From NCBI GenBank assembly GCA_015233335.1, contig JADFXX010000007.1, positions 15,221 through 79,220 on the forward strand: a stretch of DNA of 64,000 nucleotides. Reading direction: 5' to 3'. This document shows, in pieces, positions 44,701 through 58,499 of the stretch. The notes below the pieces were generated by a model. The model was not told the DNA's origin. It ran no database searches and was given only the letters and a program-made list of their open reading frames with translations. A program made the position numbers and the translations under genes. Source of the DNA: Candidatus Omnitrophota bacterium (lineage in GTDB: Bacteria > Omnitrophota > Gorgyraeia > Zapsychrales > Fredricksoniimonadaceae). Numbering within the stretch: position 1 is the stretch's first letter; the number at the start of each line of letters is the position of its first letter.

Positions 44701-45405
44701 CTATATCGAACTTGCGTCAATAAGGAATAAAGCAGGTTTTTTATCGATATGGATAAGATTTTTCTTCCATTCTTTGACATTCATAGTTTTGATGATCTGT
44801 TCGCTGGAGCCTATAGAACAGGCAACACAAAAATAAGTCTTGTCCTTACAAACTTTCAGGACATCATCTAATATGTATTGATTACGATAGGGCGTTTCCA
44901 TAAAAATTTGGGTTTGTTTTTCCTTTAAAGAGCGCTCTTCTAACATCTTGATTTTCATTATTCTTGCCTGATGATCTCTAGGTAAATAACCGTTAAAAGC
45001 AAAATTTTGACCTGAAAGTCCAGACGCCATCAAAGCCATCACGATCGAACAAGGTCCTGTCAGGGGGATAACATCTATATGATGCTGATGGGAGAGCAGG
45101 ACCAAATCAGCCCCGGGATCAGCTACACAGGGGCATCCGGCTTCTGATATAATAGCCCCATCCCCTTTTTGAAGAATTGTGATGTACCCTGCAATCTGAT
45201 TGAGATTGGTGTGTTCATTGAGATCATAAAAACAGCAGGCATCAAAAGGAAATTGCGCATTCAATCTTTTTAAAAAGCGACGGGCTGACTTTGGCTCTTC
45301 AACAAAGAAATTACGCACATCATTGATTTTTCGGACTATGTCAATGGGAAAAAGAACTCCCTCTTGATCATTAATAGTGTTGGGGATTAAATATAACTTA
45401 TGCAT
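44701..45405 (-). CDS. Tetrapyrrole-methylase-fold SAM-dependent methyltransferase (RsmI-like paralogue)
   Basis: LYLIPNTI N-terminus, [25 protein letters not shown]. Confidence 0.6.
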
Positions 45406-46016
45406 TAATGCTCGTCATGTCCCCATGTCTTTTCCAGATATTCATTACGTCCGGAATTGTCATGGTAATGATGATATTGAAGAGAGCTCTTTTGATAATA
45501 CTTTTGATGATAGTCTTCCGCCGGATAAAAAGCGGATGCCGCTACAATTTGGGTTGCAATAGGTTCGTGAAAACGGCCCGAAGCAGACACGGCCTGCTTG
45601 GATTTTTCTGCTATACGTTTTTGCTCTTCATTGTGATAAAAAACTGCGGTCCTGTACTGTGAGCCTTCGTCTACAAATTGACCATTGACCTGGGTTGGAT
45701 CAATATTATGCCAATAAATGTTTAAGATTTTCTCATAGGATACTTCTTGAGGATCAAATTCAACCTGAATCGCTTCAGCGTGACCTGTGACGCCAGAAGA
45801 GACTTCTTCATAGGTTGGATTAGGCATGTTCCCTCCGGTGTAACCCACGGTTGTTTTCTTGACACCTTGAGTGTGATCAAAAAAAGGCTGCATGCACCAA
45901 AAACATCCGCCTGCAAAAGTTGCTTTTTCCAGTTGAGTATTTTTCACAACAGCCTCCCCTGCTAGCACGATATTCGAAAAAGATACAAAAGCGGCAATCA
46001 ACAATAAAATACGCAT
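45405..46016 (-). CDS. msrA: Peptide methionine-S-sulfoxide reductase, exported
   Basis: N-terminal signal peptide (MRILLLIAAFVSFSNIVLA), GGCFWC, and GHAEAIQVEFDP. Confidence 0.9.
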   Translation of the reverse strand: MRILLLIAAFVSFSNIVLAGEAVVKNTQLEKATFAGGCFWCMQPFFDHTQGVKKTTVGYTGGNMPNPTYEEVSSGVTGHAEAIQVEFDPQEVSYEKILNIYWHNIDPTQVNGQFVDEGSQYRTAVFYHNEEQKRIAEKSKQAVSASGRFHEPIATQIVAASAFYPAEDYHQKYYQKSSLQYHHYHDNSGRNEYLEKTWGHDEH

Positions 46017-46028
46017 AAAAGATATCGC

Positions 46029-46544
46029 TTATTTCTGTTCTACAAATTTTAGGGCTACTGAATTAATGCAATACCTTTTTCCTGTTGGGGCCGGACCGTC
46101 ATCAAAGACATGCCCTAAATGCGCTTTGCAGCGGGGGCAGTACACTTCAATACGGGCCTGTAAAAGACTTTTATCCGTTAAGTAAGCAATATTAACAGGA
46201 TCAATAGGTTTGGTAAAGCTAGGCCAACCTGTCCCTGATTCAAATTTATCTTCTGACGAAAATAAATCCAACCCGCAGCCAATGCATTGATAAACGCCTT
46301 TACGATGATTGTTGACATACTCCCCGCTAAAAGCATGTTCGGTCCCATGCTGACGGGTCACATCATATTGCATAGGAGATAATATTTTTTTCCATTCATC
46401 GGGCGTTTTAACTACTTCTGAAGTTTTAACATAAGTTTTAGTGGTTGCATCATAAACCTTGATTGTGTTATGAGTTGATTGAGACATAACCGAGCCTCCA
46501 TTAAAAATCATCACTAAGAATAAGGTCCATATGATTCTATTCAT
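46029..46544 (-). CDS. msrB: Peptide methionine-R-sulfoxide reductase, exported
   Basis: Signal peptide, CIGCG...CPRC Zn site, GWPSF, RYCINS. Confidence 0.9.
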
Positions 46545-46559
46545 AATTTATAGGTGTCT

Positions 46560-46991
46560 TTATTTAAATATGGCCAGCAATGCCAGGGCCTGAGAGAATT
46601 CCTTTGAACTTACAACTCCTACAATCCTGGAATCCGGTATTTCGTGACCATGGCTATCCAGAAAAACAATGGTCGGCACGCCATCAATCCCATACTCCTG
46701 AATAATCCTCTGTACCCGGCTATTATCCATATCGGTCACATCCATTCTCAGGGCAGTCACAGAGGCAAGTTTGGCCGCAATCGCAGGATCAGAAAAAACA
46801 GTCCGGTCTAATTCATGACAATTAGGACACCAGTCCGCATAAAAATCAATCACTACAGGTTTTTTTCGATTGACGGAATCCGCCAAGACCTTCTCGCTAT
46901 ATGGCTTCCAGATCGATTTTGACATCATCGATACTTGCTGGCAGGATGCAAAGATAAACGATAAAATCATTAAACCAATTAAATTCTTCAT
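46560..46991 (-). CDS. Thioredoxin-fold lipoprotein resembling the DsbD gamma domain
   Basis: Lipobox IFASC. VIDFYADWCPNCHELDRTVFSDP...GVPTIVFLD parallels the E. coli DsbD C-terminal domain ([21 protein letters not shown]...GLPTILFFD). Confidence 0.8.
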   Translation of the reverse strand: MKNLIGLMILSFIFASCQQVSMMSKSIWKPYSEKVLADSVNRKKPVVIDFYADWCPNCHELDRTVFSDPAIAAKLASVTALRMDVTDMDNSRVQRIIQEYGIDGVPTIVFLDSHGHEIPDSRIVGVVSSKEFSQALALLAIFK

Positions 46992-47009: not shown

Positions 47010-50000
47010 TTACTGATCTTGAATCCCTAAAAATCCGTGCAGGTCTGTCATAGGCTGGATATTAACAATCACCGGCATAAAGCCGGTGGCGTGTTGAAGC
47101 TCTTTTAGCATAGAGGAATCGGTCCTGAACTTAAATTTTTCACCAAAATCTTGCGTCTGCAATTTCATATAAGCAGAGGTCAAATCAATACCGCCAGTAT
47201 TAACTTTGTTTTTTTCTGCTTCAGCATTCCCTTTAATAAATTTTTCTCTTAGCTCAGGCCTTGATCCGACAATCTGAATGGCAAATTCTTCTGCTTTGAC
47301 CCGAACATTTCTTCTGTACTTTTCAACCGCCATGGCCCCTTTTTTCACCATTTCTGCTCTTTCATCTGGAGCATTCATTAATCTTTCTAAAATTTTCCTA
47401 CTAAAAACCTGCGCGGCACCGATTTGAACTAATGCATCTTTTACTTCTTGATTAAATTTCCAGTCACCCTCAAAATACAAGACTGGTGTTTGTTGACTAG
47501 CCGGTTCGAAAATATTCCTGTCACTTCCAATTACAGCGACATTACCAAGACCATACATTTTAAGAAGCTCTCCATCAGTATTAAGGATAAGAACATTACT
47601 GCCCTCTACTTTTGAATCTGACCAAGGCATGTTATCATCACTGCGAACAACGATCGATTGACCGGAAAGATTACTCAATATTGGTAAATCATTTTTTAAA
47701 GTCTTTGCGTCTCTCTTTTGCCTAAAACCGATAATAAGCAGTGGACGCTCTTCTGGCCTTGTCCGGCGCATTACTTCTTGTGTTTGGATTTTTCCATATA
47801 AAGAGTTATAAACTTTCATAAATGCGGGAAATTCTTCTCTTTCTTCAGGAGAGCCCAGCACAATTACTTTTCTATCAGGAGTTATCCCTAAAGACTCTCT
47901 TATTCCTTGAACATCTTCTTGGGAAGCCCTTACCGGAAGATTAAATTTAAATGGCGTATAAGGCAATGATACGGACAAGGGATTTTTAGGAGATTCCATT
48001 ACAATATCCCCGAGATCATGAAACTCTACTGAAATAGCACCTTTTTCGCTATATTCCTCGAATGCCTGTATCCTGAAATTTGGAAAAAATTTTCTAGCCT
48101 TAACCAAATCAATCTCCTTATCGTATAATATGACCACCCTGTCTTTATTTAAACCTAATGCCCTGATTAACCCCCAAGCAGCATTAACAGCAGCGATTTC
48201 ATGTATTTTTATAGCCAATGTTACTGAATGAGAAGTGATCATTGTTGTAAATCTTTGTTTTAATCGTGATAGAAACACATCAGGAGTATGCAGTAAATTT
48301 AAAGAATCTTTGATCAAATCTTTCTCTAATGAATTTTCACTCTCTTTCTGAGTTTGATAGCTATGATCAGAGGCAAGGCCTCGTGCAAAAAGATCAAAGA
48401 TACGAAACAGCTCCTCTAATTGCCCCACACTCCAATTAGGCACTTCATAGGCTCTTTCGGGATTATCTTTTAATAGGGCAAAAAATTTTAGAAAATAATC
48501 CAACCCAACACCGGGAAGCTGTTTTCCATAAACCTCCCTGAATACAGTTTGAATTTCTTCATCCAAAAGCTTATCCTCTTTGGGAGTAAAGTTGCGAACT
48601 ATGCCTTGATTTGAAACGATAACTTGGGAGGATCTAGCTCTCTTCGACTTTGCGCCACGACTACGATCAAAAACCACTGGCACCTTCGCATCATTTAAAG
48701 CTATTCTAACATCTTCTTGAGTTGCAAAGCCTGCGTCAACAAGACCATTTAAGCCCTCAACACATGCTTTGCTCACAGGACTATTTTCATCCCTTCTAGT
48801 CAAACCACGGACAAAGGCTCCTAAAACATTATGCTCTTTCACGTCTTCTTCATTAACTAAGCCGGCCGCAATCAGATAATTAAGGCTCTGGACATTGGCC
48901 AAGCTCACCTCCGAAGATGTCCCGCCAATACCACGCACAAGAACCTCTGACACCTGCCTATCCTGCAACTCTTTTATAATCTCTGCTTTTGTAGCAAACC
49001 CTTTGATCATAAGGCTATTGAGGCCGTCGGCATTGGCATGACTTATCGCACGATTTTCATGCATAAGGCCGCTCACATATTTCTTTAACATCTCATATTT
49101 TCTTATGTCTTCCCCAGAAACTACACCGGCTGTAATGAGGCTATTAAGCGCTTGTGTATTATCACGCCTTACCGGATTACTATTAACATCACTAAGACCA
49201 TGAACAAGAATATCAAGGATCTGATCTGTTATTTTTACTTCTTCCTTAGAAACACGTCCCGTGGCAATAAAATTCTTAATGTTCTCAGCATTTTCTAATC
49301 TTACAGCACTATTTTTATTCCCCAGAGCATCTACAAAAGTTTTTAAAGAATTGCGATCCGAGACTTCTGTTATTTTATTTTTCAATCTCTCTATTGAGAT
49401 GCTTTTGAACCATTTTTCAAATCGTTGATAATTATCGGGATTTGCTGGCCCTGTATCGCCTTCTAAAGGTTTCACCCCCACGGGCAGAGTATTTTCCGTG
49501 GCAACAATTAACGAGGAAGAACCTTGAGGAGGGACCTCTGTCATCTTGATCAAACCTTTCGTCCCCAAAGCAGTATCACCGAACATCGCAGCATCAAAAT
49601 TAACTCCACCCGAAAAGTATTTCCTGGGAATAACCTCCTGGGTCAATGGGTCTTGTTCTTCCTTGATATAATTATAAACCCCCTTTTTAAAGGCCTTTAA
49701 ATACAGCTGATAAATCTTCTCTTTTTCCAGCGGGTCATCAATATTAACGCCAGCAACCTTGTTTTGATCGGCATACACCTGCCCTAAGATGCTATCCTTG
49801 ATCTTCTTCTTATACCAGGTGGCAAGAATAAGGGAATTATACACCTGCCTTAACTGAGAAAAATTCTTGCCTTCGTTGACTTCTTTATTCAATTCTGGAA
49901 TGACGACTTCACGGATGATCTGTGAACCAAGGGCATTAACGTCATTTGTCGATTGGCTGTTAACCTGGGTTGCTTTCAGTTGCAGTCCTTCATTGATTGG

Positions 50001-50720
50001 CGTCTGGCTTTTCTTCAAGGATAAATAATCCTGCTCCAACATAACCTTTAACTTGCTTTCTTTCACATATGCCGTCCCTGCTTTGGGATTTTCATAAACC
50101 ACAGCTGTCTGTGGCACTATCCAGACCTTATTAAAAGTGTTAACAGGGATGTTCGTGGTCCCATATTTCTTGCTTGCCTCATCATAAACACGCCTCCAAA
50201 ATCTTTTTCCTACCTTATCTTCAGGAAAAACCAAACTAGCTGTAATTTGCTTTAACATATAATCTTCAGCTAACACGTCTCGCCCCATTTGGGTTAAACC
50301 AAAACTCGTTGGAATGATCCTGTCGTTCTCATACGGAGACAAATTCACCCATAAATCTTTTTCGGGAATAGTTAAGGAAGCAAGGAAGTATTTGACAAGC
50401 TTGGTGGTTTCGTTCTTTAATGCGATAGGGTTTTGTCCCTGGGTTAGAGCCAAATCCCCCTTGTCTAAAATAAAATCAAAACGAAAAGGATTGTTGGGAT
50501 AAACCTTGATACCTTTAAGAATAAGCGGATTAAATTCAGGACTAAGATTAACCCTAACTCCCGGGGCAGGCAAATTAATATCTCCTCCTGCCAAAGAAGC
50601 AGGCTGGGCTTGAATTAAAGGGATATTAAGGCTTGTAATAAAAAAACAGCATATAACCAAAAAGGTGATCACACGCTTAAAATCTGTTAATTTTATGGGG
50701 TTTGACATGCTCTTAATCAA
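47010..50720 (-). CDS. 1236-aa exported multidomain protein: signal peptide, unknown N-domain, 5 x ~44-aa helical repeats, GT30 (Kdo-transferase)-like domain, C-terminal GGIDL tail
   Basis: Single uninterrupted ORF. The N-terminus has K/R residues, a hydrophobic core and IQA-QP. Domain evidence is given in findings. Confidence 0.7.
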   Translation of the reverse strand: MIKSMSNPIKLTDFKRVITFLVICCFFITSLNIPLIQAQPASLAGGDINLPAPGVRVNLSPEFNPLILKGIKVYPNNPFRFDFILDKGDLALTQGQNPIALKNETTKLVKYFLASLTIPEKDLWVNLSPYENDRIIPTSFGLTQMGRDVLAEDYMLKQITASLVFPEDKVGKRFWRRVYDEASKKYGTTNIPVNTFNKVWIVPQTAVVYENPKAGTAYVKESKLKVMLEQDYLSLKKSQTPINEGLQLKATQVNSQSTNDVNALGSQIIREVVIPELNKEVNEGKNFSQLRQVYNSLILATWYKKKIKDSILGQVYADQNKVAGVNIDDPLEKEKIYQLYLKAFKKGVYNYIKEEQDPLTQEVIPRKYFSGGVNFDAAMFGDTALGTKGLIKMTEVPPQGSSSLIVATENTLPVGVKPLEGDTGPANPDNYQRFEKWFKSISIERLKNKITEVSDRNSLKTFVDALGNKNSAVRLENAENIKNFIATGRVSKEEVKITDQILDILVHGLSDVNSNPVRRDNTQALNSLITAGVVSGEDIRKYEMLKKYVSGLMHENRAISHANADGLNSLMIKGFATKAEIIKELQDRQVSEVLVRGIGGTSSEVSLANVQSLNYLIAAGLVNEEDVKEHNVLGAFVRGLTRRDENSPVSKACVEGLNGLVDAGFATQEDVRIALNDAKVPVVFDRSRGAKSKRARSSQVIVSNQGIVRNFTPKEDKLLDEEIQTVFREVYGKQLPGVGLDYFLKFFALLKDNPERAYEVPNWSVGQLEELFRIFDLFARGLASDHSYQTQKESENSLEKDLIKDSLNLLHTPDVFLSRLKQRFTTMITSHSVTLAIKIHEIAAVNAAWGLIRALGLNKDRVVILYDKEIDLVKARKFFPNFRIQAFEEYSEKGAISVEFHDLGDIVMESPKNPLSVSLPYTPFKFNLPVRASQEDVQGIRESLGITPDRKVIVLGSPEEREEFPAFMKVYNSLYGKIQTQEVMRRTRPEERPLLIIGFRQKRDAKTLKNDLPILSNLSGQSIVVRSDDNMPWSDSKVEGSNVLILNTDGELLKMYGLGNVAVIGSDRNIFEPASQQTPVLYFEGDWKFNQEVKDALVQIGAAQVFSRKILERLMNAPDERAEMVKKGAMAVEKYRRNVRVKAEEFAIQIVGSRPELREKFIKGNAEAEKNKVNTGGIDLTSAYMKLQTQDFGEKFKFRTDSSMLKELQHATGFMPVIVNIQPMTDLHGFLGIQDQ
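48702..49346 (-). repeat. Five tandem ~44-aa protein repeats (period 42-46 aa) inside the 1236-aa ORF
   Basis: Recurrent core (L/I)N(S/G/Y)L(I/M/V)x(A/K/T)G(F/V/L)(A/V)xxE(D/E)(I/V), anchored at aa 481, 525, 567, 613 and 657. Confidence 0.7.
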
Positions 50721-54090: not shown

Positions 54091-56389
<2,299 letters not shown>

Positions 56390-56427
56390 ATTTTCTTAAG
56401 ATTCTTAGGCCTTTAGCATGAGAGTCC

Positions 56428-57942
56428 TCATGCTTTAAAGGTAGATTTGACCTCTTCAAGCATTTTTTTCAAAAGAGCCTTTATTTCATCAGTCATGGCC
56501 AAGGTATTATTAAAAATTCTTACAAATTCAACATATTGGCTGTCCATCTGGGCAGACAAATAGTCTTCAAAATCGCGCACACGGTTAACCGGAATATCAT
56601 CAAGATAACCATTGGTCCCGGCAAAAATAATAGCCACCTGTTTAACGACCGGCATCGGTACGTGAATACCCTGTTTAATGACTTCCATCAAGCGCTTTCC
56701 GCGATCCAGCTGTTTACGGGTCGCTTGATCCAAATCAGAAGCAAATTGTGAAAAAGCCGCAAGCTCCCTGTATTGGGCCAGATCCAAACGCAGAGAGCCG
56801 GCTGTTTGTTTCATGGCTTTGACCTGAGCATCGCCTCCGACACGGGAAACTGAAATCCCGGGATTAATAGCAGGACGCTGACCAGCATTAAAAAGATCGC
56901 CTTCCAGGAATATTTGTCCGTCGGTAATGGAGATAACATTGGTCGGAATATATGCGGAGACATCAGACGCCTGAGTTTCGATAATAGGCAATGCTGTCAG
57001 ACTTCCGGCACCTTTTTTATCTGACAATTTGGCTGCGCGCTCAAGTAAACGGCTATGCAAATAAAAAATATCACCTGGATAAGCTTCACGGCCAGGGGGG
57101 CGGCGCAGCAATAGCGACAGTTGACGATAAGCCTGAGCTTGTTTCGTTAAGTCGTCGTAAATAATCAACGCGTGCTTACCATTGTCACGGTAATACTCTG
57201 CCATAGCGCAACCGGCGTAAGGCGCTAAAAATTGCATAGGTGCGGGATCCGAGGCAGTGGCCGCAACAATAGTCGTGTATTCCATAGCGCCAAACTTACG
57301 TAAAGTTTCGTAGACACCAACCACGGTCGATCTTTTTTGACCGATGGCTACATAAAAACAATACACGCCTTTACCTTTTTGATTAATGATCGTATCAATA
57401 GCCAAGGTCGTCTTTCCTGTTTTTCTGTCACCTATAATCAATTCCCTCTGTCCTCGGCCGATGGGTGTCAGGGCATCAATAACCTTAATCCCGGTTTGTA
57501 TAGGCTCATGTACATTCTTGCGGTCAATGATCCCGGGGGCTTTTACTTCAATCGGCTGCATGGAACGAGCCTCAAAGGCCGGCTTCCCGTCAACAGGAGC
57601 TCCCAGGGCATCCACAATGCGGCCTAACAGTCCCTCCCCTGCCGGGACAGAAGCGATGGTGCCGGTGCGTTTAACCTCATCACCCTCTTTGATATCAGAA
57701 TCCTTACCGAATATAGCGACCCCAACATTGCTGCTTTCCAAATTCAAAGCTATACCTTTAATGCCTCCGGAAAATTCCACTAACTCTCCCGCCATGACAT
57801 TGCTCAGGCCATAAACACGAGCAATACCGTCACCAACATTAAGGACAGTGCCGACCTCATAGGTTTCCACCTTACTGGTAAAATTGGCTAACTGCTTTTT
57901 GAGAATTGATGATATTTCATCGGGATCTAATTGTTGGGACAT
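56428..57942 (-). CDS. atpA: F1 ATP synthase alpha subunit
   Basis: GDRKTGKT Walker A. The start is taken at ATG 57942 ([12 protein letters not shown]), preceded by AAGGA; the ORF-track start at 57966 overlaps atpH. Confidence 0.95.
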
Positions 57943-57959
57943 ATTATTCCTTTTGTTGG

Positions 57960-58499
57960 CTAACAAACAGGCGAAGTCGTCTGTTGTAAAAAATGATTCA
58001 ATTGGCTTTTAAACCCATAATCATAAACTCGGCCTTGGGCATATATGCGAAAACCTCCCACCAAGGAGGGATCCATATCCCATCGGGGGATCATATGCTG
58101 ACCAAAAGTATCCTGTAGGCATCTGCTGATAAAAATCTTGTCTTCATCGTTAACGGGAAATGCTGTTTGGATGAGAGCACGCAATTGATGGGTGCCGGAT
58201 AAATATAAAACATCAAAAGCTTCTATGATCTCTTGAAGTATGCTCAAACGGTTTTTGTAAGTAATAAATAAAAGAAATCTCAAGACCAAATCCGGTACTT
58301 TGCCTTCAAATAAAGCCTTTAAAATACCCCCGCGTTCCTCAACAGAAAGAAGAGGATTCTTTAAAAATAACTGAAAATCCTCCAAATCAAGAATAAGGCT
58401 TCCCATATGGATTAAGGCGTCCTGCACCGGCTGAAGATTATTTTCTTCCCGGGATAGATCAAAAAGCGCTTGAGCGTAACGATGAGCTGATTGACTCAT
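57960..58499 (-). CDS. atpH: F1 ATP synthase delta subunit
   Basis: The N-terminus [11 protein letters not shown], 179 aa, and operon position. Confidence 0.85.

What the first reader, a model, noticed from the sequence alone, without database searches (positions are those of the whole stretch)
47265..48239. Kdo-transferase (GT30)-like domain on a protein predicted to be exported
Seen: aa ~828-1152 parallel E. coli WaaA/KdtA in order. HSVTLAIKIHEIAAVNAAWGLIRAL matches HAVSVGE..AA.PLIRAL. VIVLGSPEEREEF matches VWIAGSTHEGEEE. PLLIIGFRQKRD matches LLLILVPRHPER. VLILNTDGELLKMYGLGNVAVIGSDRNIFEPASQQTPVLYFEG matches VVVGDTMGELMLLYGIADLAFVGGSL..GHNPLEAAAHAIPVLMGP. Catalytic-region residues are substituted, for example SVGE to TLAIKIHE and GGHNPLE to DRNIFEP. 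Established: GT30 enzymes are cytoplasmic-face GT-B enzymes that use CMP-Kdo. Inference: there are three options. The domain may be a degenerate, non-catalytic sugar- or nucleotide-binding module in the periplasm. The N-terminal hydrophobic segment may be an uncleaved anchor with an unexpected topology. Or this may be a divergent lipid A-core transferase fused to a large accessory region.
Basis: partly seen in the sequence, partly recalled or inferred. Interest (0 to 1): 0.55.

Follow-up and report, generated by a model that had tools for sequence, protein, structure and literature searches.

The report
Kdo-transferase-like cargo on exported protein
A real but very divergent relative of the lipid-A Kdo transferase is one of many interchangeable enzyme 'cargo' domains in a huge Omnitrophota-only protein family whose members all carry an export signal, a conserved head and a conserved tail, so it is unclear where such cofactor-dependent enzymes do their work.

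Summary
Residues 828-1152 of the 1236-aa ORF (47010-50720, minus strand) form a GT-B glycosyltransferase fold. Its donor-binding half is homologous to GT30 Kdo transferases (hhalign E=1.5e-31; best PDB folds are WaaA 2xci and 4bfc). It is not WaaA: there is no PF04413 acceptor domain, no SxGE motif, no lipid A or Kdo gene context, and it scores 27 bits against a 438-bit cutoff.

It is also not degenerate. The equivalents of the WaaA CMP-contacting residues (R1000, G1050, N1069, E1072) and of K162 (K925) are kept in 74-83 of 84 copies of a previously unannotated subfamily. Stand-alone members of that subfamily, which lack a signal peptide, sit in glycan-assembly gene clusters.

The domain is variable cargo in an Omnitrophota-specific family (more than 4000 proteins, at least 594 loci, several paralogues per genome). 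The family is built as Sec signal peptide, conserved ~340-aa head, spacer, cargo, conserved ~60-aa tail. Other members carry kinases, methyltransferases, GGDEF domains or dehydrogenases.

The most likely reading is an active CMP-sugar transferase with a non-lipid-A acceptor, exported and acting outside the producer's cytoplasm. The site of action is inferred, not shown.

The parts
47010..50720 (-). Whole ORF, 1236 aa from TTG. The NCBI record starts at ATG 50708 and gives 1232 aa.
   Evidence: An AAGGA Shine-Dalgarno-like motif lies 5 nt upstream of the TTG.
50607..50720 (-). Sec-type signal peptide (aa 1-38): K/R-containing n-region, h-region aa 17-36, c-region ending IQA|QP.
   Evidence: It is the only hydrophobic segment of the protein. 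The same tripartite pattern occurs in 164/165 family members, and a small -3/-1 site in 159/165. This rests on heuristics, not a trained predictor.
49566..50588 (-). Conserved N-module ('head', aa 45-385), the hallmark of the Omnitrophota family.
   Evidence: It is 60-75% identical to more than 100 listed homologues and has over 4270 hits. At least 594 loci occur in GTDB genomes, and the best 80 are all Omnitrophota MAGs. It has no Pfam or PDB relative. The AF2 model is poor (pLDDT 57) and has no significant fold match.
48561..49400 (-). HEAT-like alpha-solenoid spacer (aa ~441-720).
   Evidence: Weak Pfam HEAT hits here. Precomputed HEAT/HEAT_2 domains in homologues P0002 and P0005. This region aligns to several different stretches of P0002 and P0005, which indicates internal repeats.
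48231..48560 (-). Helical extension (aa 721-830) that precedes the GT-B core. It is conserved only in the closest fused copies.
   Evidence: Alignment A1 columns 1-110. The AF2 model is all-helical here. Stand-alone subfamily members lack it.
47961..48230 (-). GT-B N-terminal (acceptor) Rossmann-like domain, aa 831-920. Candidate catalytic Glu841 (48198-48200) sits at the N-cap of helix alpha1, just after strand beta1.
   Evidence: AF2 secondary structure. Foldseek aligns the full length to 2xci. Pfam, NCBIfam and hhalign do not recognise it. E at this position in 58/84 copies.
47265..47960 (-). GT-B C-terminal (donor) domain homologous to the GT30 CMP-Kdo-binding domain, aa 921-1152. Includes K925 (47946-47948), R1000 (47721-47723), NTDGEL (47565-47582) and DRNIFEP (47502-47522).
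47013..47198 (-). Conserved C-terminal tail (aa 1175-1236): GGIDLT..IKF..D...L..LQ.A.GF.PVI.NIQP..DL..FLG.
   Evidence: It is 55-60% identical across paralogues, and 117 of 120 top hits carry both head and tail. In genome loci 50 of 58 complete ORFs end with it, 0-8 aa before the stop. It has no PDB or NCBIfam relative.

Best explanation
Shown: aa ~831-1152 form a genuine, very divergent GT-B glycosyltransferase domain. Its nucleotide-sugar-binding half descends from the GT30 (Kdo transferase) lineage.

Shown: it belongs to an unannotated subfamily with the signature PFKF ... RPLLI(G/A)xR ... NTxGEL ... GxDRNxxEP. That subfamily also exists as stand-alone ~320-aa proteins without signal peptides in glycan-assembly gene clusters.

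Shown: in this protein the domain is the variable 'cargo' of an Omnitrophota-specific, massively paralogous family. The family is built as Sec signal peptide + conserved ~340-aa head + spacer (HEAT-like here) + cargo + conserved ~60-aa tail.

Inferred: the domain still binds a CMP-activated ulosonic acid (CMP-Kdo or similar) through R1000, G1050, N1069 and E1072, with K925 helping. It transfers the sugar to an acceptor other than lipid IVA, with Glu841 as the probable base.

Inferred: the protein crosses the inner membrane by Sec. Like its kinase-, methyltransferase- or GGDEF-bearing paralogues, it works where a cytoplasmic cofactor pool is available outside the producer's own cytoplasm, that is, at or in a host or prey cell, or on material released from one.
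For: Homology and fold:
- NCBIfam WaaA models are the only hits.
- The domain profile finds PDB 4bfc and 2xci.
- AF2 model pLDDT 85.5; Foldseek top hits are 2xci and 4bfc, followed by other GT-B enzymes.
- hhalign E=1.5e-31; a WaaA-only HMM gives E=7e-24.

Donor site kept:
- The functional residues of A. aeolicus WaaA are listed in review PMC6286764.
- They map onto K925, R1000, G1050, L1052, N1069 and E1072.
- Conservation over 84 domain copies: K 82, R 74, G 83, N 78, E 82.
- An E, D or H is present at one of two N-cap positions of helix alpha1 in 71/84 copies.

Functional relatives:
- Stand-alone members P0173 and P0178 lie beside an ABC_tran/ABC2_membrane exporter, GT2, GT9, GT1/GT4, a sulfotransferase and a polysaccharide deacetylase.

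Family architecture:
-.
- Signal-peptide statistics.
- Cargo diversity: 50 Pfam families in 51 members, plus the domain lists.

Lifestyle context from the literature:
- Omnitrophota are mostly ultra-small cells with predatory, parasitic or symbiotic signatures and with large extracellular proteins (PMC10066038).
- Long multi-enzyme proteins with signal peptides have been reported in this phylum (bioRxiv 10.1101/2023.11.21.568195 and 10.64898/2026.06.07.730766).
Against: - No assay, ligand docking or coordinate-level superposition was possible, so activity and donor identity are inferred from conservation only.
- The E31/G30 'SxGE' position of WaaA is Ala-Ala here. Glu841 lies three residues earlier and is not universal (58/84).
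- The 'GGSLxxxGGHN' loop is shortened by 7 residues, which could change the donor.
- Nucleotide-sugar GT-B enzymes are not known to work in a periplasm, and no delivery machinery, immunity gene or other conserved neighbour accompanies family genes.
- The head and tail have no recognisable relatives, so their trafficking role is a guess.
- The signal peptide was judged by simple rules only.
- The gene neighbourhood in the window is housekeeping.
Confidence: 0.55

Rival explanations
1. Pseudo-enzyme. The domain is exported and serves only as a sugar- or nucleotide-binding or structural module of a surface or extracellular scaffold, without catalysis.
For: The canonical base position (WaaA E31) is Ala here, and the acceptor half is unrecognisable by sequence. 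No CMP-sugar pool is expected outside the cytoplasm. The protein also contains HEAT-like scaffold repeats.
Against: Near-invariance of exactly the CMP-contacting residues and of K925 across 84 copies. An alternative acidic N-cap residue is kept in most copies. Stand-alone relatives sit in biosynthetic glycan clusters. Binding alone rarely preserves the whole set R, G, N, E and K.
Confidence: 0.2
2. Cytoplasmic-face enzyme. The N-terminal hydrophobic segment is not a cleaved export signal, and the whole family is tethered at the inner membrane with the cargo in the cytoplasm. There the domain acts in ordinary glycan assembly.
For: All cargo types need cytoplasmic cofactors such as CMP-sugar, ATP, SAM, GTP or NAD(P). 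The 2026 preprint reads many long Omnitrophota proteins as membrane-anchored with cytoplasmic domains.
Against: There is only one hydrophobic segment. K/R residues lie on its N-terminal side and none in the 15 residues after it. An A-x-A|Q site is conserved in 159/165 members. This is the signature of N-in/C-out insertion followed by cleavage.
Confidence: 0.15
3. N-terminally extended housekeeping WaaA (lipid IVA Kdo transferase).
For: WaaA models are the only named relatives. No other waaA lies in the 64-kb window.
Against: The score is 27 bits against an equivalog cutoff of 438. There is no PF04413 and no SxGE motif. The domain lies more than 800 residues from the only hydrophobic segment. 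Only about 2 of 85 family proteins carry it, and some proteins carry two copies. There are no lipid A or Kdo neighbours.
Confidence: 0.02

Closest known systems
WaaA/KdtA, CAZy GT30 (A. aeolicus 2xci/2xcu; A. baumannii C-terminal domain 4bfc)
   Same: GT-B fold. The C-terminal domain is homologous (hhalign E=1.5e-31). The equivalents of K162, R212, G248, L250, N273 and E276 are conserved, as are the 'TxGEL' and 'NxxEP' motifs.
   Different: The acceptor domain is not recognisable (no PF04413). SxGE is replaced by (Y/H)E(V/I)A(S/A). The GGSLxxxGG loop is shortened to GxDR. There is no adjacent N-terminal membrane helix. A ~110-aa helical extension precedes the core. The domain is embedded in a 1236-aa protein with a signal peptide, and there is no lipid A context.
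Acinetobacter baumannii KdoT (PMC12856342)
   Same: A GT-B enzyme that uses CMP-Kdo, lies outside the assigned GT families and has no single essential catalytic base. This is a precedent for Kdo transfer without the WaaA Glu.
   Different: Its SRRT motif is not seen here. No sequence was available for comparison, so the relation is untested.
Long or giant multi-enzyme proteins of Omnitrophota (bioRxiv 10.1101/2023.11.21.568195; 10.64898/2026.06.07.730766; PMC10066038)
   Same: Same phylum. The same repertoire of HEAT, HATPase_c, methyltransferase, PPDK_N, GGDEF and glycosyltransferase domains sits behind signal peptides or TM segments. The same unresolved topology paradox applies. Proteins of 2.6-5.1 kaa carry this head, tail and GT30-like domain (P0137, P0149, P0172).
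   Different: In the passages I searched, those papers do not describe the conserved head and tail or a GT30-like domain. This protein is only 1.2 kaa, with a single cargo.
Type IX secretion cargo (Sec signal peptide + functional domains + conserved C-terminal domain)
   Same: [quoted passage not shown] Q at +1 of the predicted signal peptidase site recalls the Bacteroidetes 'Q-rule'.
   Different: The tail matches no NCBIfam or PDB model. An additional conserved 340-aa head is present. T9SS is not known in this phylum (my own knowledge).
Neisseria Lst sialyltransferase (surface-exposed CMP-sugar transferase that uses host CMP-Neu5Ac; recalled from my own knowledge, not tested)
   Same: A precedent for an exported bacterial transferase that depends on a CMP-activated ulosonic acid supplied by another organism.
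   Different: It belongs to a different GT family (GT52), has a different architecture, acts on the cell's own LOS, and shows no detected sequence relation.

Membership tests
GT30 / WaaA (KdtA) | [quoted passage not shown] | tested here: met
   AF2 model pLDDT 85.5, pTM 0.81, with alternating beta/alpha elements in two halves. Foldseek top hits are 2xci and 4bfc, followed by TreT, WaaG, EarP, TagF and MurG.
GT30 / WaaA (KdtA) | C-terminal CMP-Kdo-binding domain homologous by sequence | tested here: met
   hhalign probability 99.9%, E=1.5e-31, 211 columns. WaaA-only HMM 70 bits, E=7e-24. Profile against PDB finds 4bfc at E=1.2e-5.
GT30 / WaaA (KdtA) | CMP-contacting residues (A. aeolicus R212, G248, L250, N273, E276) and K162 | tested here: met
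   They align to R1000, G1050, L1052, N1069, E1072 and K925. They are conserved in 74-83 of 84 subfamily copies. This rests on alignment, not on a ligand-bound structure.
GT30 / WaaA (KdtA) | N-terminal domain matching Pfam PF04413 (Glycos_transf_N) | tested here: not met
   No Pfam hit at E<=10 for the whole protein or the isolated domain. hhalign covers only the C-terminal half. True WaaA controls score 1e-37 to 1e-65.
GT30 / WaaA (KdtA) | Catalytic SxGE motif (G30, E31) at the beta1-alpha1 junction | tested here: not met
   The equivalent positions are A843-A844. A Glu (E841) lies three residues earlier. Stand-alone subfamily members do keep D/E at the E31 position.
GT30 / WaaA (KdtA) | Curated family score (NCBIfam equivalog cutoffs) | tested here: not met
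   27.4 bits against a 438 cutoff, 17.1 against 524, and 14.2 against 590.
GT30 / WaaA (KdtA) | Membrane-associating N-terminus next to the catalytic domain; cytoplasmic-face location | tested here: not met
   The only hydrophobic segment is aa 17-38, about 800 residues upstream, and it looks like a cleavable signal peptide. Actual topology cannot be tested here.
GT30 / WaaA (KdtA) | Transfers Kdo from CMP-Kdo to lipid IVA | not testable with these tools
   This needs an enzyme assay or complementation.
GT30 / WaaA (KdtA) | A separate canonical waaA present elsewhere in the genome (shows this copy is an extra paralogue) | tested here: inconclusive
   In the 64-kb window the WaaA HMM hits only this ORF. 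The rest of the MAG could not be searched.
Sec-exported protein | Tripartite signal peptide (basic n-region, hydrophobic h-region, small -3/-1 residues) | tested here: met
   aa 1-38, KR...VITFLVICCFFITSL...IQA|Q. The pattern is present in 164/165 family members and the site in 159/165. These are rule-based checks only; no SignalP or DeepTMHMM was available.
Omnitrophota head/tail cargo family (defined here) | Conserved N-module directly after the signal peptide | tested here: met
   aa 45-385, 60-75% identical to paralogues. HMM 589 bits.
Omnitrophota head/tail cargo family (defined here) | Conserved ~60-aa tail at the extreme C-terminus | tested here: met
   aa 1175-1236. 50/58 complete ORFs in genome loci end with it.
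Type IX secretion cargo | C-terminal domain matching known T9SS CTD models | tested here: not met
   No NCBIfam or Pfam hit in the tail. No PDB relative.
Polymorphic toxin / effector systems | Variable toxin domain with an adjacent cognate immunity gene or conserved delivery genes | tested here: not met
   Clustering of neighbour ORFs over 80 loci found no recurrent neighbour; the only large clusters are antisense artefacts. The variable part is central, not C-terminal.

The most novel reading that the evidence does not exclude
The head/tail family is a previously undescribed export and delivery platform of Omnitrophota. It sends cytoplasmic-type enzymes out of the cell: Sec, then an unknown step that reads the conserved head and/or tail. 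The enzymes end up on or in a host or prey cell. This member would then be an injected or surface-acting GT30-derived transferase that uses the victim's CMP-Kdo (or a related CMP-sugar) pool to modify a target. That would make it the first exported branch of the Kdo-transferase lineage.
Probability: 0.2. Interest if true: 0.85.

Novelty: new variant of a known kind. Interest (0 to 1): 0.6.

Why it matters
GT30 is known only as the cytoplasmic-face lipid A Kdo transferase. This finding defines a deep, unannotated sister branch with an intact donor site, a relocated candidate base and a new acceptor domain. The branch occurs both as stand-alone enzymes in glycan clusters and as a module in Omnitrophota multidomain proteins.

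The domain also exposes a very large Omnitrophota-specific family (thousands of proteins, several per genome) that places cofactor-dependent enzymes behind a textbook export signal and between a conserved head and tail. If these proteins really leave the cell, they form a candidate effector arsenal for an uncultured, probably predatory or parasitic phylum. Its mechanism of interaction with hosts is an open question. The family gives concrete, expressible targets for testing it: head, tail and single-cargo proteins of about 1 kaa rather than 40-kaa giants.

Tried and rejected
- Pfam on the whole protein and on four pieces gave nothing useful.
- phmmer of the single domain against the PDB returned only spurious de-novo TIM-barrel hits. 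An alignment profile was needed.
- The head alone modelled poorly (pLDDT 57). Its Foldseek matches are not significant: colicin Ia, ClyA, NheA and MakB/E at E 0.26-0.9 with probability below 0.1. I treat these as a lead only, not as evidence.
- Head and tail profiles against PDB, Pfam and NCBIfam found nothing.
- Exact look-up of the window protein's contig: not on record.
- Neighbourhoods of close homologues P0002 and P0006 show no shared or glycan-related genes. Clustering of neighbours over 80 loci found no conserved partner.
- A search with the stand-alone subfamily profile returned no named protein.
- Literature searches for the motifs and for an Omnitrophota head/tail family found no description.
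- Rejected: lipoprotein (no lipobox), prepilin-type signal (no G|F...E5), N-terminal beta-barrel translocator (the head is predicted mostly helical and is highly charged), and housekeeping WaaA (see the membership tests).
- Caveat: the 20-sequence WaaA alignment used for hhalign contained one stray subfamily member (P0246). The HMM rebuilt without it still gives E=7e-24.
Full report
**What is there.** The finding lies in one long ORF on the minus strand, 47010-50720 (1236 aa from a TTG start). It is identical to an NCBI 'hypothetical protein' of a Candidatus Omnitrophica MAG, which is annotated from the ATG four codons downstream. The window is ~41% G+C. The neighbours are housekeeping genes: aconitase, an exported Trx/MsrB/MsrA trio, a radical-SAM protein and F-type ATP synthase subunits.

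**Is the WaaA resemblance real?** Yes, for the C-terminal half beyond any doubt.
- Pfam finds nothing. The only NCBIfam hits of the protein are three WaaA equivalog models, far below their cutoffs (27 bits against 438).
- I collected 19 copies of the domain from homologues. Their profile finds the two WaaA entries of the PDB (4bfc E=1.2e-5; 2xci E=0.047).
- Against 1.84 billion representative proteins the profile has 4021 hits. About 150 ranks down, the list passes from multidomain proteins into ~420-aa proteins at E~1e-17. These are bona fide GT30 by Pfam PF04413 (E 1e-37 to 1e-65) and by their sources' names.
- Profile-profile comparison with 20 sequences (19 WaaA plus one stray subfamily member) gives probability 99.9%, E=1.5e-31 over 211 columns. 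The alignment starts exactly at FKF/KYD.
- A WaaA-only HMM scores this protein at 70 bits (E=7e-24), aa 925-1136.
- An AlphaFold model built on the 19-sequence alignment is confident (pLDDT 85.5, pTM 0.81). Its best PDB matches are A. aeolicus WaaA (E=9.6e-7, 383 columns) and the A. baumannii WaaA C-domain (TM 0.78, rmsd 3.1 A), followed by other GT-B enzymes.
- The N-terminal Rossmann half is supported by fold only. No sequence method aligns it.

**Is it degenerate?** No.
- A review of the WaaA structure lists the CMP contacts as the P211 carbonyl, R212, F247/G248/L250, N273 and E276, and lists G30, E31, E98 and K162 as needed for activity (PMC6286764).
- From the printed alignments, R212 maps to R1000, G248 to G1050, L250 to L1052, N273 to N1069, E276 to E1072 and K162 to K925.
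- Over 84 near-complete copies of this subfamily these residues are kept in 74, 83, 74, 78, 82 and 82 copies respectively.
- The SxGE motif is indeed lost (A843-A844 here). However, a Glu (E841) sits at the N-cap of helix alpha1 directly after strand beta1. This is the canonical place for a GT-B base.
- Stand-alone members of the subfamily carry D/E at the true E31 position ('HAEHVSELNAA' against the WaaA 'HAVSVGEVxAA'). The fused copies carry E three residues earlier. In total 71 of 84 copies have E, D or H at one of the two positions.
- A CMP-Kdo GT-B enzyme without an essential base has recently been described (KdoT, PMC12856342).

**Relatives of the domain.** The subfamily (signature PFKF ... 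RPLLI(G/A)xR ... NTxGEL ... GxDRNxxEP) has no Pfam or NCBIfam model and no named member.
- It occurs fused in large proteins up to 5 kaa, sometimes in tandem (P0006, P0009, P0141, P0153).
- It also occurs as stand-alone proteins of 315-365 aa without signal peptides, one of them from a Margulisbacteria MAG.
- Two stand-alone genes lie in glycan-assembly clusters. One sits directly beside an ABC_tran/ABC2_membrane exporter with GT2, GT9, GT1 and a sulfotransferase. The other sits next to a polysaccharide deacetylase, GT2, GT9, GT4 and acetyltransferases.
- This argues that the lineage is enzymatically active in ordinary cytoplasmic glycan synthesis.

- Of the more than 4270 homologues of the full protein, most match only aa ~14-380 (60-72% identity) and aa ~1175-1235 (55-60%). 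They carry entirely different Pfam domains in between. 117 of the 120 best hits have both ends.
The best 80 are all in Omnitrophota MAGs; some are deposited as 'uncultured Planctomycetales'. Up to eight paralogues of one genome appear among those 80.
- In those loci 50 of 58 complete ORFs end with the tail within 0-8 residues of the stop. Only 2 of 85 carry the GT30-like domain.
- The cargo regions of 51 members hit 50 different Pfam families, each in one or two members. Examples are protein kinases, SAM methyltransferases, HATPase_c, Glu/Ala dehydrogenases, PPDK_N, GGDEF, a GDSL lipase, GNAT and PRK.
- Nearly all members (164/165) start with a basic n-region plus hydrophobic h-region, and 159/165 have a small -3/-1 site, mostly A-x-A|Q.
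- The head and the tail have no relatives in Pfam, NCBIfam or the PDB. The head modelled poorly and its fold search was not significant.
- No gene is recurrently adjacent, and the close homologues P0002 and P0006 have unrelated neighbourhoods.

**How it most likely works.**
- Shown: a GT30-derived GT-B domain with a conserved donor site; membership of the head/tail family; a signal-peptide-like N-terminus.
- Inferred (i): the domain binds a CMP-activated ulosonic acid and transfers it to a non-lipid-A acceptor. The acceptor half is new and is preceded by a ~110-aa helical extension.
- Inferred (ii): the protein is exported by Sec. Its cargo, like that of its paralogues, needs a cytoplasmic cofactor pool. 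It is therefore used at or in another cell, or on material from one.
- This fits published views of Omnitrophota as ultra-small, host-dependent or predatory cells with large extracellular multi-enzyme proteins and conserved T2SS/Tad loci (PMC10066038; bioRxiv 2023.11.21.568195; bioRxiv 2026.06.07.730766). The last of these explicitly notes the same topology paradox for giant proteins.
- I put this explanation at about 0.55. The rivals are a non-catalytic exported module (0.2), a cytoplasmic-face tethered enzyme with a non-cleaved anchor (0.15) and a true WaaA (0.02).

**Comparison with known systems and novelty.**
- The domain works like the donor half of WaaA but fails most membership tests for GT30/WaaA: PF04413, SxGE, the curated score, membrane-proximal placement and gene context. 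It is best described as a new, deep sister subfamily.
- The carrier architecture resembles T9SS cargo in logic (Sec signal, then functional domains, then a conserved C-terminal domain), but it shares no detectable homology.
- I found no description of the head/tail family or of this GT30-like branch in the searchable literature.
- Overall I rate it a new variant of a known kind, embedded in a family-level puzzle that is only partly anticipated by recent preprints on giant Omnitrophota proteins.

**Limits.**
- There was no trained signal-peptide or topology predictor.
- The rest of the MAG could not be searched for a canonical waaA.
- Two AlphaFold jobs were the maximum, so the idea that head and tail fold together could not be tested.

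Noticed in passing
window 45405-46991 (minus strand): The Trx-like gene starts 18 bp after the stop of the big ORF, in the same orientation. It has a lipobox-like N-terminus (46560-46991) and is followed by MsrB/SelR (46029-46544) and MsrA/PMSR (45405-46016). Each has its own hydrophobic N-terminus. Together they look like an exported methionine-sulfoxide repair set that may be co-transcribed with the big gene. The arrangement is not conserved next to homologues P0002 and P0006.
   Followed up: partly
L001 10709-10728; L014 6592-6611; L021 6139-6158; L029 6139-6158; L048 6142-6161 and 6805-6824: A palindromic element ATTCCCGC-N4-GCGGGAAT lies inside the head-module coding region of paralogues, at two variable loops, and reads in frame as 'VIPAKAGIQ/H'. 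Other odd in-frame peptides occur at the same loops ('ILSAAKDLK', 'HPERSEGSQ'). This recalls the Rickettsia palindromic elements that insert into ORFs. No copy is present in the window (0 matches at up to 2 mismatches).
   Followed up: partly
window 50607-50612 and family-wide: The predicted signal-peptidase site is mostly A-x-A|Q, with Gln at +1 (here IQA|QP). This is reminiscent of the 'Q-rule' (N-terminal pyroglutamate) described for Bacteroidetes signal peptidase I substrates.
   Followed up: no
window 50708-50720: Start-codon ambiguity. The TTG at 50720 has an AAGGA motif 5 nt upstream, whereas the NCBI record starts at the ATG at 50708. The difference is 4 residues and does not affect the signal peptide.
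   Followed up: yes
window 48189-48200 (aa 841-844) compared with stand-alone homologues P0178, P0205, P0181, P0194: The candidate catalytic acid has moved. Stand-alone subfamily members keep D/E at the WaaA E31-equivalent position. The fused Omnitrophota copies have S/A there and a Glu three residues earlier.
   Followed up: yes
P0006 (aa 651-1076 and 1647-2067), P0009, P0141, P0153: Some family or giant proteins carry two copies of the GT30-like domain, and P0029 combines it with a GT2 domain. This suggests multi-step glycan building on one polypeptide.
   Followed up: partly
window 49566-50588 (head module); model mee6fe4315a05: The best fold matches of the low-confidence head model are alpha-pore-forming toxins and colicin Ia (helical bundle plus beta-hairpin). 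They are statistically non-significant (E 0.26-0.9), so this is only a lead for a membrane-insertion or translocation role.
   Followed up: partly
L013 6802-7161 (-), L008 1732-2040 (-) and ~25 other loci: The apparently 'conserved' ORFs of 100-120 aa that recur across loci lie antisense to the head-module coding sequence. They are artefacts of its high DNA conservation, not genes.
   Followed up: yes
window 54091-57966 (minus strand): F-type ATP synthase beta, gamma and alpha subunit genes lie 3.4 kb from the ORF. Omnitrophota papers distinguish 'symbiotic' type 2/3 F-ATPases linked to type IV pili. Which type this one is was not examined.
   Followed up: no
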